Positions 811 to 19,680 of a stretch of DNA of 64,000 nt are shown piece after piece; within the stretch, counting starts at the first letter, position 1, and each line of letters starts with the position of its first letter. The position numbers were made by a program, and so were the translations under genes. The notes below the pieces were generated by a model that ran no database searches, had not been told where the DNA came from, and was given only the letters and a program-made list of their open reading frames with translations. Source of the DNA: Dictyostelium discoideum (lineage: Eukaryota); the NCBI GenBank assembly GCA_000004695.1, contig CM000150.2, forward strand, positions 4,224,001 through 4,288,000, in the 5' to 3' direction.

Positions 811-1392
811 TCCTGAAAAAAAAAAAAAAAAAAAAAAATTAAATAATCTGTTTTCTATGAGGTGTAAAAATAAAAAAATAAAAAAAAAAAAAAAAAGTTT
901 TGGAGTTTTTTTTTTTTTTTATTTTTTTTATTTTTTTTATTTTATTTTTTTTTTATTTTTTTTTTTCCACGTTATGATAGGTTAATTTTTTTTTTTTTTT
1001 TTTTTTTTTATTTTTTTTTTTTGAAATTTAAATAATCATAACAACAATAATGATGGGATATTAAATAAAAAAATAAAAAATAAAAAATAAAAAATAAAAA
1101 AAAAAAATAAAAAAAATAAAAAAATAAAAAAATAAAAAAATAAAAATAAAGTTAATAATTTACAAATTCAAAAAATATATATAATATAATTTGGCACCCC
1201 ACTTATTTGCTCTTTTTTTTTTTTTTTTTTTTTTATTTTCAATGATGCCCACATCCTTAGATATTTTTAAAATCCGCTTTTTGAGAATTTTTAATTCAAA
1301 GAATTTGTGATAGTGTTGAGAATTAGATTATTAATTAAATTTGAAACAAACAAACAATATTAAAATTAAATTATCTAATTATTTTTTTTTCT

Positions 1393-1423
<31 letters not shown>

Positions 1424-2340
1424 TATGAACTTCAAAAAAAAAAAAGAAAAATAATATAACCAATATAAATACTTTTTGGTTTTTTATTTATTATCTTAAA
1501 TATATTTGAACATATCAAAGGTTATAAAAAAAAAAAAAAAAAATTAATATAACCTCATGAGGCCCAACTTAGATAACCTAATTTATTTTCTATTATTATT
1601 TTTTTATTATTTTTTTATTATTTTTTTATTATTTTTTTATTATTTTTTTTAAATTGACAATCACACATACACACACACCATTTTATAAAATATTTAATTA
1701 CATAAAATTTAAGGTTCATTTTTTTTTTTTTTTAATATTTATTAATTTTTATTATTTAATTTATTAATTTATTATTATCAAAGTATTTTCCATATAAAAA
1801 TAAAAAAAAAAAAATTCAGAGTTTTAGTCCCAATGAAAATTTTAAAAACTACTAATATCTCTTCCCTATGAAAATATAATAAAAATAAAATAAATTTAGT
1901 TAGTAATAATTAAAAATACTATTTAATAATATTAATAAATTATTTGATACCAACAAATATTAAAGTACGCATCCAGTCAAAAGGTACTTGTATTTTTGAA
2001 CGTAAAGAACCTAATCTAGTTAAATATGCACTCCTCCAACTAAAAAATTTTTAATTAGTATTTTTTTTATTTTTATTTATTTATTTATTTGAAAACTTAC
2101 GTAATAAAACCAATAAAACCACTTAAATCGAAGAAATCAGTTTGTAAAATACCACTTTTTTTACCAGTATAAGCTAATAAACCTAAAAATTTAAAAGCAA
2201 ATGGTTTTGGTGGATTTGGATTTAACTTTTCAAGATTATTAAATTCTTTTGCTAAATAAACAGCAGATTGTGAAGCTACTTGAGCAGTTGGTGGATAATT
2301 TTTATTTTCAACATTTGCACAATCACCAAAACTAAATACA
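811..2340. repeat. Segmental duplication copy A (the source copy). It holds the 3' flank, last exon, last intron and 3' end of exon 2 of the NDH-2 gene.
   Basis: At the start of this block, 'atcctgaaaaaaaa..ttaaataatct..atgaggtgtaaaaataaaaaaa' is shared with 9897..9960. Near the other end, 'cagagttttagtcc(c)aatgaaaattttaaaaactactaatatctcttccctatgaaaatataataaaaataaaat' and 'aaagtacgcatccagtcaaaaggtacttgtatttttgaa(c/a)gtaaagaacct' recur near-identically at 10480..10700. The exon copy 2051..2340 corresponds to 10751..10990. Copy A carries about 340 bp (about 960-1300) that copy B lacks. Confidence 0.7.
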
Positions 2341-3177
2341 TTTGAATAGTTTTTAACACGTAAATGATCATCAACAATGATTCTATCATGGCTATCCTTT
2401 TCAAATGATGAGTTTTTAACAAGTGGATGTTGACCTATACCAGTTGACCAAACTAATAAACCATATGGAATTCTATCACCATTATCCAAAATAACATAAT
2501 CTTTCAATACCTCCTTTACCGAACTATGAGTTCTGACATCGATGCCGGAATTTCGGAAATTTATCAACGCCTTTTTCACCAACTTCTGGTCGAACGTACT
2601 CAAGATTTTACCCGATGCCTCCAATAGAATGATTTTCACTTCATTTACTGGCACGAATGGGAAAAGTCTTGACAAATCTTCACTAAAGAAATCATTTAAT
2701 TCAGACGTGAATTCTATACCTGTAGCACCACCACCGACGATAACGAACGATAATAGTCTTTCACGTTCTTCAGTTGAAACATCTGGCAATGATGCACGTT
2801 CAAAACATTCTATAATCTTTTGACGAATTTCTCTGGCATGATGAAGTTCTTTTAAAAAGTTGGCATTCTCTTCAACACCTTTAATACCAAACGTATTATT
2901 TCTACTACCAACACCAATCACTAATTTATCATATTTCATCTCAAATGGTTTCTCATTATGAAATGTTGATTTCACCAGTACACTATTATTTTCTGGATTA
3001 ATTGATGTAACTGATGCTTGAATATATTTAAATTCATTAATATCTCTTGTTGTTCTAACTGGTTCTGCAATTGATCTAAATTCTAATGTACCAACTGCTG
3101 ATGATGTTAATAATGGTGTAAATAAAAAATGATTTCTTGGTGAAATTACTGTAATATCATATTTTATTGAATTTACT

Positions 3178-3216
<39 letters not shown>

Positions 3217-3446
3217 TAATAAATTAATAAATAAATAATATTAAATTTCTTTTAATTATTAATTTATTATTTACAATTTTTTAAAAATGAATAAGATCCC
3301 CAACCACAACCTAAAATAATTAATTTTTCATTTTCAATAACTTTTCCTCTTTTTTGTCTTCTTATAATTGCTTTTTCCAATGATGATTTTGTTAAGTGAT
3401 CAGAAATATAATTTCTTCCTCTAATAATTAAATTTTTTAATCCCAT
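1940..3446 (-). CDS. Type II (alternative, rotenone-insensitive) NADH:quinone oxidoreductase, NDH-2/Ndi1-like
   Basis: Three-exon model on the minus strand: 3275..3446 (ATG; MGLKNLIIRGRNYISDHLTKSSLEKAIIRRQKRGKVIENEKLIILGCGWGSYSFLKN, the first dinucleotide-binding GxGxxG), 2101..3175 (ISPRNHFLFTPLLTSSAVGTLEFRSIAEP..., second Rossmann motif FVIVGGGATGIEF, ..GDCANV..) and 1940..2039 (TWRSAYLTRLGSLRSKIQVPFDWMRTLIFVGIK*, the typical NDH-2 C-terminus). Donors are GTAAAT (3274-3273) and GTAAGT (2100-2099). Acceptors lie at 3177-3176 and 2041-2040. The phases are 1, 2 and 0, and the sum is in frame. Confidence 0.85.
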
Positions 3447-3711
3447 TTTTTATTTATTTTTATTTTTTTTTATTTTTATTTATTTTATTGAGTTGTAAAA
3501 AAAAAAAAAAAAAAAAAAGAATTTGAAATTGTAATTATTTAGAAAATTTTTTATTTTGTTGTTTTGTTTTTACTTTTTTTGTAATTTGAAATTGTGTGAA
3601 CATAAGGTGTTTTTATTTTTATTTATTATTTTTATTTTTATTTTTTTTTTTTTAATTATAAAAAAAAAAAATGAAATTTAATTAAAAAAAAAAAAAAAAA
3701 TTAAATTAATT

Positions 3712-3752
<41 letters not shown>

Positions 3753-17800: not shown

Positions 17801-17889
17801 AGTATTAGTTTCTGCTGTCTCTGGTTTAGTTTCAATTGTAGTTGTTGTTGTGGTGGTTTCTTCAATAACTTTGACATCTTCTTTTGACT

Positions 17890-17893
<4 letters not shown>
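14878..17893 (-). CDS. Long-chain fatty-acyl-CoA synthetase (AMP-binding family) with low-complexity N- and C-terminal extensions
   Basis: Two exons: 16744..17893 and 14878..16652. The donor is G|GTAAGT (16743-16738), the acceptor AG is at 16654-16653, the phase is 1, and the join reads ..RPTIFFG|VPRVWEKIQ... The AMP-binding signature is LIYTSGTTSLPKGVMLTHSNVLW. The core motifs are GYGMSE, ..[65 protein letters not shown]... The protein is 974 aa. It carries an N-terminal poly-Thr run and C-terminal (EEKxVE)/(EEQK)n repeats plus an acidic Ser/Thr tail. Confidence 0.85.
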
Positions 17894-17927
<34 letters not shown>

Positions 17928-18167
17928 ATTTATTATTTTATTTTTTTTATTTGTTTGTCTTCTTTATAAATGAAAAATTATTATTATTAAATTATTTTTT
18001 AATTTGTTTTTATTTTTTTATTTTTTTATTTTTAAAAAATTATTATTATTATTGTTATTTTTTTTTTTTTTATGACAAATAAAAAGTAATAAATTAATTT
18101 TATATATATATGTGTGTGTGTGTGTTTTTGATAAGGGATGAATAAACGATTGAAAGGTATGGTAGAG

Positions 18168-18200
<33 letters not shown>

Positions 18201-18479
18201 ATTTTTTTTATTTTTTTTTTTTTTTTTTTTTTTTTCAAGATTATTTGAATTTTTTTTATTTTTTTAATTTATTTTTAATTATTTTAATTTTTTTAATTTT
18301 TTTTTTCATTTTTTTTTTGAAAATTTAATTTATTTTTGTCATGTTGTCATGAGATTTTTTAACGGATTTCTAAATTTCACGTGTTATCATGGATTCGTTT
18401 TTAAAATTTTTTTTACAGCGTCAAATATCATCATGACTTGAAAAATAATCCAATTTTGGTTTGGGAAAAATATGAAAAT

Positions 18480-19055
18480 AATTTTTTAATTTTTTTTTTT
18501 TACTTTTTGTCAGGATACTATGGACGAATAAGTTAAAATTTTCTTTAAAAGAGGGTTTTTTTATTCGTTTATAATAAAATAAATAAAAATAAAAAAATAA
18601 AAATAAAAAAATAAAAAAAAACAACTAAAATTATAACCTATTAAATCAATTCAAACTTCTTATCAATCTAAAAAATAATATTATCATATAATTTTTTAAA
18701 ATAGTAATAAAGAAAAATATTTATGAAAAAAGAAAAAAAAACTTTTAACATTTTTCGTTCTTAAATTTTTTTTTTTATTTTTAATTTTTCTATTTTTTTT
18801 TTTTTTTTAAGGAAGTTTATTTTTATTTTTATTTTTAACCACAAAATTGTAGAATAACACATTCTGAACATGGTTTCGATTTCTCAATTCAATTAAATGA
18901 AGATGGAAAGCTCACTAGATTTTCCTAATACTTGAAATAACCAAACCTAAAATGGAAAAAAACAAAAATAAAACGAAAAAAATTTTCATTTCAATATTTG
19001 AATATTTTATTTTTTGTTTAATGGTTAATTGAAAATTTGGTTATCATTATTAAAA
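18480..19055. repeat. Inverted copy of flank module F (the reverse complement of about 9438..9900)
   Basis: For example, 18511 'ggatactatggacgaataagttaaaattttctttaaaagagggttttttt..' is the reverse complement of 9840..9900. Likewise 18841..18920 is the reverse complement of 9480..9560, and 19010..19050 is the reverse complement of 9438..9480. Confidence 0.7.
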
Positions 19056-19680
19056 TTATCAGCAGTTGGTACATTAGAATTTAGATCGATTGCAGAACCA
19101 GTTAGAACAACAAGAGATATTAATGAATTTAAATATATTCAAGCATCAGTTACATCAATTAATCCAGAAAATAATAGTGTACTGGTGAAATCAACATTTC
19201 ATAATGAGAAACCATTCGAGATGAAATATGATAAATTAGTGATTGGTGTTGGTAGTAGAAATAATACGTTTGGTATTAAAGGTGTTGAAGAGAATGCCAA
19301 CTTTTTAAAAGAACTTCATCATGCCAGAGAAATTCGTCAAAAGATTATAGAATGTTTTGAACGTGCATCATTGCCAGATGTTTCAACTGAAGAACGTGAA
19401 AGACTATTATCGTTCGTTATCGTCGGTGGTGGTGCGAGTAAATGAGGTGAAAATCATTCTATTGGAGGCATCGGGTAAAATCTTGAGTACATTCGACCAG
19501 AAGTTGGTGAAAAAGGCATTGAATACTTAATGATGGGTAATCGTTATTAGTTTGGTCAACTGGTATAGGTCAACATCCACTTGTTAAAAACTCATCATTT
19601 GAAAAGGACAGCCATGATAGAATCATTGTTGATGATCATTTACGTGTTAAAAACTATTCAAATGTTTTTATTAAAAATAG
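19029..19680 (+). pseudogene. NDH-2 pseudogene fragment, inverted relative to the intact gene (5' part of exon 2, with internal deletions)
   Basis: The plus-strand reading AVGTLEFRSIAEPVRTTRDINEFKYIQASVTSINPENNSVLVKSTFHNEKPFEMKYDKLVIGVGSRNNTFGIKGVEENANFLKELHHAREIRQKIIECFERASLPDVSTEERERLLSFVIVGGGA is identical to exon 2 of the 1940..3446 gene. It is followed by a stop and by two deletions of about 105-110 bp relative to the intact gene (one removes ..TGIEFTSELNDFF..PVN, the other ..RNSGIDVRTHSS..IPYG). The homology ends at about 19675. There is no start codon and no first or last exon. Confidence 0.75.

What the first reader, a model, noticed from the sequence alone, without database searches (positions are those of the whole stretch)
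811..19680. Nested segmental duplications built around the NDH-2 gene: one intact copy plus a truncated direct copy and an inverted, internally deleted copy
The intact 3-exon NDH-2 gene (1940..3446, minus strand) has its 3' flank, last exon, last intron and 3' end of exon 2 duplicated. The direct copy lies at 9897..10990 at about 95% identity and is truncated in mid-exon. A 460-bp flank module, F (9438..9897), adjoins that copy. F reappears inverted at 18480..19055, fused directly to an inverted copy of the 5' part of exon 2 (19057..19680). That inverted copy still reads as a perfect 138-aa open frame before two deletions of about 105-110 bp. The F-to-exon junction in copy C does not exist in copy A or copy B, so C is a chimeric rearrangement product rather than a simple inverted duplicate. 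The inverted pair brackets about 8 kb carrying the Frizzled-like and acyl-CoA synthetase genes, which makes it a substrate for inversion or ectopic recombination. The 100% amino-acid identity of the first 138 codons of copy C suggests a very recent event, or ongoing gene conversion.
Basis: seen in the sequence. Interest (0 to 1): 0.65.

Follow-up and report, generated by a model that had tools for sequence, protein, structure and literature searches.

The report
Broken, inverted spare NDH-2 gene copy
In Dictyostelium discoideum chromosome 1, two fragments of the NADH dehydrogenase (NDH-2) gene are the two halves of one former tandem duplicate that was cut down by a deletion and then split by an 8.7-kb inversion; this is ordinary genome decay whose history can be reconstructed step by step.

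Summary
The window is D. discoideum AX4 chromosome 1. Gene A is DDB_G0270104 (NDH-2), which has 4 exons (3446..1842, minus strand), not 3.

- **One copy, not two.** Direct copy B (about 9955/9991..11003) ends at A2336. Inverted copy C (19045..19670) starts at A2333/2337. They are complementary halves of one partial copy, split by a single inversion of 11004..19670.
- **Structure before the inversion.** Undoing it gives F1 – NDH-2' (A~1275..3115) – F2. That is the signature of a tandem duplication of about 8.7 kb, followed by a 6.3-kb internal deletion that created the F-to-exon junction.
- **Sibling species.** D. citrinum and D. firmibasis have a single NDH-2 with DHX<-fsl<-ACS<- ->NDH-2, exactly the predicted pre-inversion order. 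They have no G gene between ACS and NDH-2.
- **Not an artefact.** A second D. discoideum assembly is colinear with the window at 99.8% identity.
- **Age.** A and the pseudo-copy differ mostly at synonymous sites (3-5 non-synonymous to 12 synonymous; pS about 6%), and non-coding parts differ by about 10%. The spare copy was therefore probably functional for some time. The event is not "very recent", and gene conversion is not needed to explain the identity.

This is an ordinary kind of event, unusually well resolved.

The parts
1842..3446 (-). Intact NDH-2 gene A (DDB_G0270104). Four exons: 3446-3275, 3175-2101, 2039-1955, 1865-1842. Introns of 99, 61 and 89 nt, all GT..AG.
   Evidence: The spliced translation equals P0001 (451 aa) exactly. 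RNA contigs L001-3 align exon by exon. Pfam domains Pyr_redox_2 and NDH2_C.
1275..2336 (.). Segment a1 of the parent locus: the 3' flank, exon 4, intron 3, exon 3, intron 2 and the 3' part of exon 2. This is the source of copy B.
   Evidence: Alignments. Homology is solid from A1319, plausible from A~1275, and absent further left.
2333..3115 (.). Segment a2 of the parent locus (the 5' two-thirds of exon 2, lacking its first 60 nt). This is the source of copy C.
3806..9437 (-). D. discoideum-clade-specific insert carrying gene G (CDS about 8826..4148; domains DUF7743/7035/7034/7949, EGF-like). It lies between the ancestral ACS-NDH-2 intergenic pieces 'i' (3447-3805) and F.
   Evidence: It is absent between ACS and NDH-2 in D. 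citrinum and D. firmibasis. An 87% ortholog has a locus tag adjacent to NDH-2 in D. cf. discoideum, while the best D. citrinum hit is only 37%. Pfam.
9438..9925 (+). F1, a 488-bp repeat. Its distal part is ancestral ACS-NDH-2 intergenic DNA. Its proximal part, including a GC-richer core at 9486-9600, is detectable only in D. discoideum.
   Evidence: F1/F2 alignment. Comparison with the sibling species.
9926..9990 (.). Junction J2, the tandem-duplication junction. The end of F1 abuts the start of the copied NDH-2 3' flank, and 30-65 bp of AT-rich sequence cannot be assigned.
   Evidence: In the sibling species the F end is continuous with the ACS upstream region instead.
9991..11003 (-). Pseudogene half B (a1'): the 3' part of exon 2, intron 2, exon 3, intron 3, exon 4 and the 3' flank. 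It carries 3 amino-acid changes (C343S, A344T, R429L).
11004..19670 (.). The inverted segment (8,667 bp). It contains the fsl 3' flank, fsl, ACS, the ACS upstream region, F2 and pseudogene half C.
   Evidence: Complementary breakpoints. The uninverted order is seen in D. citrinum and D. firmibasis. The same arrangement is present in a second D. discoideum assembly.
11323..13343 (-). Frizzled/Smoothened-like gene (fsl), a passenger of the inversion.
   Evidence: ORFs. A weak Fz domain and Frizzled Pfam on the D. firmibasis ortholog.
14878..17893 (-). Acyl-CoA synthetase (AMP-binding) gene, a passenger of the inversion.
   Evidence: The D. purpureum ortholog is 75-82% identical at the amino-acid level.
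18481..19055 (-). F2, the inverted copy of F. It is still attached to its ancestral neighbour, the ACS upstream region.
   Evidence: D. citrinum is colinear across 18481 up to w18636.
19045..19670 (+). Pseudogene half C (a2'): exon-2 codons about 81-337 with two internal deletions. Its F-side end (about 19045-19055) is the deletion junction J5.
   Evidence: Another strain's annotation calls it a 133-aa gene, P0127.
20035..22332 (+). DEAH-box helicase gene. Before the inversion its upstream region (19671-20034) adjoined the fsl 3' flank.
   Evidence: Pfam. DHX and fsl are adjacent in D. citrinum and D. firmibasis.

Best explanation
B and C are the two halves of a single, formerly complete second copy of the NDH-2 gene.

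Inferred history in the D. discoideum lineage:
- (0) Ancestral state, still seen in D. citrinum and D. firmibasis: DHX<-fsl<-ACS<-[intergenic]->NDH-2->SH3-kinase, with a single NDH-2.
- (1) A segment of about 5.6 kb or more carrying gene G was inserted into the ACS/NDH-2 intergenic region.
- (2) About 8.7 kb, running from F through G and NDH-2 to roughly 570 bp past the NDH-2 stop codon, was duplicated in tandem. This made junction J2 at 9926-9990 and gave two complete NDH-2 genes.
- (3) Both copies were kept under purifying selection for a time.
- (4) The ACS-proximal copy lost 6.3 kb (the equivalent of A3116-9437: G', the promoter, exon 1 and the start of exon 2). That fused exon 2 to the start of F and made junction J5.
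- (5) One inversion of 8,667 bp had one break inside the relic (A2336/2337) and the other in the fsl-DHX intergenic region. It flipped fsl, ACS, F2 and the 5' half of the relic, making junctions J3 and J6.
- (6) Two small deletions then eroded C.

Shown directly: the complementary breakpoints, the ancestral order in the sibling species, and the presence of the arrangement in a second assembly. Inferred: the tandem origin, the order of steps 1/2 and 4/5, and the period when both copies were functional.
For: 1. B ends at A2336 and C begins at A2333/2337, with only a 0-6 bp A-rich overlap (TAAA/TAAAAA). Joined together they read ...NYSNVF|SFGD... exactly as in the parent.
2. Undoing one inversion explains two junctions at once. 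It also restores a 683-bp fsl-DHX intergenic region, compared with 312 bp in D. citrinum and 648 bp in D. firmibasis.
3. D. citrinum (L008) and D. firmibasis (L009) carry DHX(-) fsl(-) ACS(-) NDH-2(+) SH3-kinase(+) with one NDH-2. L008 is colinear with window 11184-18636 on one strand and with 3805-18 and 21435-19874 on the other.
4. F2 is continuous with the ACS upstream DNA in D. citrinum, so the F2/ACS adjacency is ancestral and the F1-end/a1' junction is the novel tandem junction.
5. F/F' divergence (10-11%) matches A/B flank divergence (about 11-13%), which fits one duplication event.
6. Coding differences are 3-5 non-synonymous to 12 synonymous (pS about 0.059, pN about 0.004-0.007). That is unlikely if the copy had been neutral since birth (binomial P from 5e-4 to 0.016 with 3 N, and up to 0.065 with 5 N and strong transition bias). 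All 5 N changes fall on the pseudogene lineage, and the S changes split roughly evenly.
7. A and the pseudo-copy differ by 1.8% in exons, whereas each differs from D. citrinum by 8.1-8.7%. The duplication therefore postdates that split.
8. The proximal half of F, including its core, is not detectable in the sibling species' intergenic DNA (z=2-3, compared with z=6-15 for the ancestral parts). Both F copies thus seem to carry the edge of the G insert, which argues that G was inserted before the duplication. The G ortholog is adjacent to NDH-2 in D. cf. discoideum.
9. A second D. discoideum assembly (L007) is colinear with window 8097-29447 at 99.77% identity.
Against: - The tandem junction J2 cannot be placed more precisely than 30-65 bp, because the DNA there is AT-rich.
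- The 'G inserted first' order rests on a failure to detect homology in fast-evolving intergenic DNA.
- The N:S argument rests on only 15-17 substitutions and weakens to P about 0.05 under strong transition bias.
- Low-complexity non-coding DNA may mutate and misalign faster than exons, so the 10% figure is inflated relative to 2%.
- D. purpureum has ACS and NDH-2 on the same strand, as in today's D. discoideum. That outgroup is too distant and too rearranged to polarise anything.
- The inverted segment (8,667 bp) is exactly as long as the A-to-B offset (2336, 11003 and 19670 are equally spaced). The stepwise model treats this as coincidence.
- Wild D. discoideum isolates could not be examined.
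Confidence: 0.8

Rival explanations
1. Two or three separate (nested) segmental duplications independently produced a truncated direct copy and an inverted chimeric copy. High amino-acid identity is then maintained by very recent origin or ongoing gene conversion from the intact gene.
For: Exon-derived parts are much more similar (97-99%) than the flanks. Identical runs of 140 bp (A/B) and 218 bp (A/C) would allow conversion. One A/B difference (position 2130) is polymorphic: RNA contigs carry the B/ancestral base.
Against: Independent copies would have to end and begin at the same nucleotide of a segment about 1.9 kb long, which has a chance well under 1%. The sibling species show the predicted uninverted gene order. 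Conversion erases synonymous and non-synonymous differences alike, so it cannot produce a 12:3 excess of synonymous changes. The core of F, which has no partner in gene A, is equally well conserved between F1 and F2 (2 differences in about 105 bp).
Confidence: 0.05
2. A single complex replication-based event (serial template switching, of the MMBIR/FoSTeS type) created the duplication, the deletion junction and the inversion together, or at least the deletion and inversion together. The copy would then never have been a complete gene.
For: All junctions lie in AT-rich DNA with short overlaps (TAAA at J3/J6; AATGAT/ATCAT-like at J5). The inverted segment equals the A-B offset to the base (8,667 bp), which hints at a geometric coupling that a stepwise model does not predict.
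Against: The excess of synonymous differences and the absence of amino-acid changes over 126 codons of C suggest the copy was under selection, and therefore complete, for most of its life. The length equality depends on later indels inside the segment (the 104- and 70-bp deletions and the 83-bp indel), so it is probably chance.
Confidence: 0.12
3. An assembly artefact of the AX4 reference, such as a mis-oriented or mis-joined contig.
For: The DNA is AT-rich and repeat-bearing, and the AX4 assembly is an old Sanger assembly (my own knowledge).
Against: An independent assembly from the 2025 long-read set of PMC12745789 (GCA_054883475.1) is colinear across every junction, with 4 mismatches and 9 gaps in 21.3 kb. 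The copies are diverged and carry private indels. There are no long inverted repeats at the breakpoints.
Confidence: 0.01
4. The fragments are not dead. C, which sits upstream of and on the same strand as the DEAH helicase gene, and B, which sits upstream of and on the same strand as G, could be exapted as exons or as sources of regulatory transcripts.
For: C keeps a 138-aa ORF. Automatic annotation of another strain calls it a gene (P0127) and fuses B with G, giving a weak NDH2_C domain in a 1,483-aa model.
Against: No transcript evidence was found: the only RNA contigs retrieved match gene A. C has frameshifting deletions and no ATG. B has lost its 5' half. All amino-acid changes are on this lineage. 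No Rfam match and no unusual RNA structure in F.
Confidence: 0.03

Closest known systems
Non-processed (duplicated) pseudogenes left by tandem gene duplication
   Same: The copy keeps introns 2 and 3 and the 3' flank of the parent. It lies next to the parent, carries disabling deletions, and the parent stays intact.
   Different: The relic has been cut in two by an inversion, so its halves lie 8 kb apart on opposite strands. The substitution pattern suggests a period as a working paralog before its decay.
Micro-inversions with breakpoints in intergenic or dispensable DNA, as catalogued in Drosophila and yeast comparative genomics (my own knowledge, e.g. Ranz et al. 2007)
   Same: An inversion of a few kb carrying two genes. 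Neither break disrupts a functional gene, and the breaks have only a few bp of overlap.
   Different: It is not the staggered-break type, because there are no long inverted duplications at the breakpoints. It is not recombination between inverted repeats either: the F/F' inverted repeat results from the inversion and did not cause it.
Structural turnover in Dictyostelium genomes (tgrBC hotspot, AX4 chromosome 2 duplication; PMC12745789)
   Same: Lineage-specific duplications, insertions, inversions and gene fragments within the discoideum clade, detected by comparing the same set of assemblies.
   Different: This is a different locus (chromosome 1, NDH-2/ACS). It is a housekeeping gene neighbourhood, not a described hotspot, and I found no paper that mentions DDB_G0270104.
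Tandem-duplication/random-loss model of gene-order change
   Same: A tandem duplication followed by loss of one copy of each duplicated gene (G' and NDH-2' were lost).
   Different: Here the losses fell on the same copy, so the duplication did not change gene order. The order change comes from the separate inversion.

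Membership tests
Type II NADH dehydrogenase (NDH-2) gene - copy A | Full-length Pyr_redox_2 / Pyr_redox / NDH2_C architecture with an intact spliced ORF | tested here: met
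   The spliced CDS equals P0001 (451 aa), which has PF07992, PF00070 and PF22366. Orthologs exist across the dictyostelids.
Non-processed (duplicated) pseudogene - B+C | Retains the parent's introns and flanking non-coding DNA | tested here: met
   B contains introns 2 and 3 and about 570-620 bp of 3' flank.
Non-processed (duplicated) pseudogene - B+C | Disabling lesions (truncation, frameshift, loss of start) | tested here: met
   Exon 1 and the first 60 nt of exon 2 are missing. There are two frameshifting deletions in C, and the copy is split by the inversion.
Processed pseudogene (retrocopy) | Precise loss of introns, a poly-A tail and target-site duplications | tested here: not met
   Introns are retained in B. 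The two gaps in C (A2460-2563 and A2655-2724) lie inside exon 2 and are not introns.
Tandem segmental duplication | The end of the unit is joined head-to-tail to the start of the unit, and the far end of the second copy continues into the ancestral flank | tested here: met
   After undoing the inversion, the F1 end (9925) is followed within 30-65 bp by the start of a1'. The F2 end is continuous with the ACS upstream DNA, as in D. citrinum. The junction itself is blurred by AT-rich DNA.
Tandem segmental duplication | Equal age of all duplicated parts | tested here: inconclusive
   F/F' differ by 10-11% and the A/B flank by 11-13%, which is concordant. Exon parts differ by 2%, explained by constraint. 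The numbers are small and the alignment is uncertain.
Simple two-break inversion | Two novel junctions whose four sides pair up into two ancestral adjacencies | tested here: met
   11003 joined to the reverse complement of 19670 restores NDH-2 exon 2. The reverse complement of 11004 joined to 19671 restores the fsl-DHX adjacency seen in D. citrinum and D. firmibasis.
Inversion by recombination between inverted repeats | Breakpoints lie inside a pre-existing inverted repeat pair | tested here: not met
   The breakpoints are 1.1 kb and 0.6 kb away from F1 and F2. Before the inversion F1 and F2 were direct repeats. The overlap at the breaks is only 0-6 bp.
Staggered-break inversion with breakpoint duplications | Each breakpoint region is present twice, in inverted orientation, at the two ends of the inversion (tens to thousands of bp) | tested here: not met
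   Only TAAA/TAAAAA is shared at the two ends.
Transposable-element-mediated rearrangement | TE sequence, or tRNA-gene-targeted elements, at the junctions | tested here: inconclusive
   There are no tRNA genes within 1-25,000, no repeats beyond those described and no Rfam hits. No Dictyostelium TE library was available to search.

The most novel reading that the evidence does not exclude
The rearranged haplotype may be a young structural polymorphism within D. discoideum, possibly restricted to the NC4/AX2/AX4 lineage. Some wild isolates could then still carry an intact, expressed second NDH-2 gene next to ACS, or the uninverted relic. In the rearranged haplotype the now-inverted F1/F2 pair (longest identical run 92 bp) could still flip the fsl-ACS block. 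Hints: the A-to-pseudo-copy divergence (1.8% in exons, with no amino-acid change on the A lineage) is no larger than the NDH-2 protein differences between AX4 and wild D. discoideum isolates (2-3%, part of it from the differing C-terminal gene models). Also, only one of the new assemblies has a gene model for the C fragment.
Probability: 0.25. Interest if true: 0.4.

Novelty: new member of a known kind. Interest (0 to 1): 0.3.

Why it matters
- **Worked example.** Four junctions in 20 kb can be decoded into an ordered history of insertion, tandem duplication, co-retention, deletion and inversion, and checked against sibling species.
- **Annotation.** The NDH-2 model has 4 exons. Newer automatic annotations end it wrongly (…FVGIK). 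In the one other assembly examined (GCA_054883475.1), the C fragment is called as a 133-aa gene and B appears to be fused to the neighbouring G gene.
- **Gene neighbourhoods.** The upstream DNA of the DEAH helicase, ACS and G genes in D. discoideum is partly of recent, rearranged origin.
- **Possible marker.** If the arrangement is polymorphic in the wild, it would be a convenient structural marker, and it would be a case of recent loss of a mitochondrial-type NADH dehydrogenase paralog.

Otherwise it is ordinary genome turnover.

Tried and rejected
- **Unmasked BLAST.** Lenient, unmasked BLAST of the A region against 8.5-20.5 kb, and of the sibling species' intergenic DNA against the window, gave hundreds of AT-rich chance hits. 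I replaced these with focused alignments and shuffle-based z-scores. An unrelated control reaches z=4.6 from homopolymer runs alone.
- **Extending copy B leftward.** The A side cannot be extended to 811. There is no homology left of about 1275.
- **Nature of F.** I tested F as a coding exon or an RNA gene. It holds only a 26-codon open stretch, no Rfam hit and no unusual fold. It is also unrelated to the small gene 'x' at the D. purpureum locus.
- **Outgroups.** D. purpureum has G-like(+) x(-) ACS(+) NDH-2(+), which is too rearranged to polarise the events. Its closest relative of G lies on another contig. T. lacteum and P. violaceum share no synteny.
- **Alternative histories.** I considered histories without an inversion: tandem duplication with random loss from a D. 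purpureum-like order, or insertion of ACS-fsl into the relic. Each needs more events and does not explain the complementary breakpoints.
- **Look-ups that found nothing.** Exact-product look-ups for junction-spanning ORFs and for neighbouring ORFs returned nothing.
- **Processed pseudogene.** Rejected, because the introns are retained.
- **Assembly artefact.** Rejected.

Full report
**What the window is.** The window is 80% A+T. The intact gene translates to a protein identical to DDB_G0270104 of Dictyostelium discoideum AX4, 'probable NADH dehydrogenase', on the 4.92-Mb chromosome 1. RNA-derived contigs L001-3 and the annotated 451-aa protein show that the gene has four exons on the minus strand: 3446-3275, 3175-2101, 2039-1955 and 1865-1842. 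The introns are 99, 61 and 89 nt, all GT..AG.

**Checking the observation.** A masked self-BLAST on both strands recovers exactly three repeat relationships in the region.
- A1468-2336 matches 10169-11003 on the direct strand (88.9% with gaps, E=0).
- A2333-2459, A2564-2654 and A2725-3115 match 19670-19544, 19522-19432 and 19435-19045 inverted (98.4, 95.6 and 99.0%).
- 9438-9485 and 9490-9925 match 19055-19008 and 18924-18481 inverted (91.7 and 87.2%).

Alignments refine these.
- Copy B is solid from A1319/w9991, plausible from A~1275/w9955, and ends at A2336/w11003. Nothing further left is homologous.
- F is 488 bp, against 575 bp for its partner, which has an extra 83 bp.
- C lacks A2460-2563 (replaced by 21 unrelated bp) and A2655-2724.
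- The 138-aa ORF at 19029-19445 is real, and 126 of its residues equal NDH-2 residues 83-208.

**The key anatomical point.** B stops at A2336 and C starts at A2333/2337.
- The parent reads ...CACCAAAACTAAA|TACATTTG...
- B ends ...CACCAAAACTAAA|.
- C, reverse-complemented, begins TAAAaACATTTG.

At the protein level C ends ...NYSNVF and B begins (F)SFGD..., which are contiguous in the parent. Two independent duplications would not share an end point to within a few bases. One copy cut by one inversion would.

Inverting 11004..19670 back gives F1 - [30-65 bp] - NDH-2'(A~1275..3115) - F2 - ACS upstream - ACS(+) - fsl(+) - DHX(+). Two things then fall into place.
- The F1-end/NDH-2-flank junction is what a head-to-tail tandem duplication produces.
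It corresponds to A3116..9437 and removes G', the promoter, exon 1 and the first 60 nt of exon 2.

Neither inversion break hits a working gene. One lies in the relic. The other lies 320 bp after the fsl stop codon and 364 bp before the DHX start codon.

**Independent tests.** The 90% cluster of the NDH-2 protein revealed further assemblies. According to PMC12745789 these come from a 2025 long-read set: AX2-214, wild D. discoideum isolates, cryptic relatives, D. citrinum and D. dimigraformum. There is also the D. firmibasis assembly (PMC11193728).
- A second D. discoideum assembly (L007, GCA_054883475.1) is colinear with window 8097-29447 at 99.77% identity, with 4 mismatches and 9 gaps. Every junction is therefore real. 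Given how close it is to AX4, this is probably the lab strain AX2-214, but I could not confirm that.
- D. citrinum (L008) and D. firmibasis (L009) each carry one NDH-2. With NDH-2 on the plus strand, the order is DHX(-) fsl(-) ACS(-) NDH-2(+) SH3-kinase(+).
- At the DNA level, L008 runs DHX (w21435-19874, reversed), then fsl-ACS-upstream (w11184-18636, forward), then NDH-2 and its flank (w3805-18, reversed). That is exactly the pre-inversion, pre-duplication order the model predicts.
- The reconstructed fsl-DHX intergenic region is 683 bp, against 312 and 648 bp in the two sibling species.

**Gene G.** The sibling species have no gene between ACS and NDH-2. Their 1.5-1.6-kb intergenic region matches the D. 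discoideum ACS upstream DNA (z=15), the distal part of F (z=6) and the 360 bp upstream of NDH-2 (z=8.7). It does not match the proximal half of F with its GC-richer core, nor L, nor the distal part of 'i'; all of these are at noise level. So about 5.6 kb or more carrying G (a DUF7743/7035/7034/7949, EGF-like protein) is an insertion specific to the discoideum clade. An 87%-identical ortholog has the locus tag next to NDH-2 in D. cf. discoideum, whereas the best D. citrinum hit is only 37%. Because both F copies appear to contain the edge of that insert, the insertion probably came before the duplication. The duplicated unit would then have been about 8.7 kb, and the second G was lost in the 6.3-kb deletion. 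This ordering rests on negative evidence and is the weakest step.

**Age and selection.**
- Non-coding parts of the two units differ by about 10% (F/F' 10-11%, A/B flank 11-13%). Exon-derived parts differ by about 2%.
- I excluded the filler region in both counts. Also leaving out the two substitutions next to junction J5 gives 3 non-synonymous and 12 synonymous coding differences (5:12 if they are kept). This gives pS of about 0.059 and pN of about 0.004-0.007.
- If the copy had drifted neutrally since birth, about 50-65% of differences should be non-synonymous. The observed deficit has P between 5e-4 and 0.016 (up to 0.065 in the least favourable setting).
- Using D. citrinum and D. firmibasis as outgroups, all five amino-acid changes lie on the pseudogene lineage, and the synonymous changes are split about evenly.
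- A and the pseudo-copy differ by 1.8% in exons, but each differs from D. citrinum by 8.1-8.7%.

The simplest reading is a duplication after the split from D. citrinum, a period with two selected NDH-2 genes, and then a fairly recent disabling of one. Gene conversion cannot produce an excess of synonymous differences. The F core, which has no partner in gene A, is just as well conserved.

**Recombination potential.** The longest identical runs are 140 bp (A/B, direct), 218 bp (A/C, inverted) and 92 bp (F1/F2, inverted). Exchange between A and B, or between A and C, would destroy the only working NDH-2 gene. Exchange between F1 and F2 would harmlessly flip 9926-18480 and is a testable prediction. 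The inversion that actually happened did not use these repeats, because before it F1 and F2 were direct repeats.

**What remains unexplained.**
- Positions 2336, 11003 and 19670 are equally spaced. The inverted segment and the A-to-B offset are both 8,667 bp. The segment's present length depends on several later indels, so I treat this as coincidence. It is the one feature that a single-step, template-switching origin might explain better.
- I could not examine wild D. discoideum or the cryptic-species assemblies, so I cannot say how old the events are within the clade or whether they are polymorphic. NDH-2 proteins of wild isolates differ from AX4 by 2-3% (part of this comes from the differing C-terminal gene models). 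That is as much as the pseudo-copy differs from A, so a within-species origin is possible.

**Comparison with what is known.** This is a non-processed pseudogene from a tandem duplication, subsequently split by a simple two-break micro-inversion.
- It is not a retrocopy, because introns are retained.
- It is not an inversion mediated by inverted repeats, nor a staggered-break inversion, because neither pattern is present at the breakpoints.
- No TE or tRNA signal was seen near the junctions, although no Dictyostelium TE library could be searched.
- No paper in the library mentions the gene.

**Verdict.** The true structure is simpler and better supported: one decayed tandem copy plus one inversion. 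The biological kind is ordinary. Interest is modest (0.3), mostly as a cleanly resolved example and as a correction to the annotation.

Noticed in passing
window 53047-60540: A tandem array of about 830-bp units (72-85% identical), which are four Ras-family small GTPase genes on the minus strand. ORFs at 53085-53585, 55831-56520, 57896-58537 and 59626-60369 all share the ...[11 protein letters not shown]... motif and end in CKMM/CKVM. This is a young tandem gene family.
   Followed up: partly
window 25766-25915 and 26522-26672: A 150-bp direct repeat (92% identical). Each copy contains a tRNA-Asp(GTC) gene (25797-25869 and 26553-26625, minus strand).
   Followed up: partly
window 22996-23132 and 23690-24148: Two self-complementary (palindromic) stretches, seen as self-hits on the opposite strand (83% over 137 bp; 65% over 496 bp) just downstream of the DEAH helicase gene.
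   Followed up: no
window 2336 / 11003 / 19670: The three homologous breakpoint positions are exactly equally spaced. The A-to-B offset and the length of the inverted segment are both 8,667 bp. I treat this as coincidence, because later indels contribute to the length, but it is unexplained.
   Followed up: partly
window 1842-1955; proteins P0122, P0125, P0126, P0128: Four of the NDH-2 models in the 2025 assemblies are 448 aa. The one I read (P0122) ends ...LIFVGIK, because it misses the last 89-nt intron. The AX4 curated model, the RNA contigs and D. firmibasis all end ...LIFGRDISSF.
   Followed up: yes
L007 1-3124 and 10001-11305 (= window about 8097-11220 and 18100-19445): In the other D. 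discoideum assembly the annotation seems to fuse pseudogene half B with gene G, giving a 1,483-aa model with a weak NDH2_C hit. It also calls pseudogene half C as a 133-aa gene with an invented first exon (MNKRLK). These are probably annotation artefacts, though read-through transcription was not excluded.
   Followed up: partly
window 2130: AX4 has a derived synonymous base in NDH-2 exon 2. RNA contigs from SRR24091721, SRR24091727 and SRR24091728 carry the ancestral base, which is also found in pseudogene B, D. citrinum and D. firmibasis. This is either a polymorphism or a strain difference.
   Followed up: partly
window 9486-9600 and 18820-18924: The GC-richer core of F is far better conserved between F1 and F2 (2 differences in about 105 bp) than the rest of F (about 11%). 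It is not detectable in D. citrinum or D. firmibasis. It has no long ORF, no Rfam match and no unusual fold. It could be a regulatory element or a non-coding exon of the G insert.
   Followed up: partly
L004 (D. purpureum GL871049.1) 1-11581: D. purpureum also has a G-like gene, an ACS ortholog (75-82% amino-acid identity) and NDH-2 within 12 kb, in a different order: G(+) x(-) ACS(+) NDH-2(+). The closest D. purpureum relative of the D. discoideum G gene is on another contig, so the G-like neighbour there may be a coincidence within a large family.
   Followed up: partly
window 14007-14111 vs 30338-30234; 13261-13553 vs 37680-37997; 17909-18088 vs 54700-54533: Several short dispersed similarities (67-83%) between intergenic stretches. 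They are probably AT-rich low-complexity DNA or small dispersed repeats.
   Followed up: no
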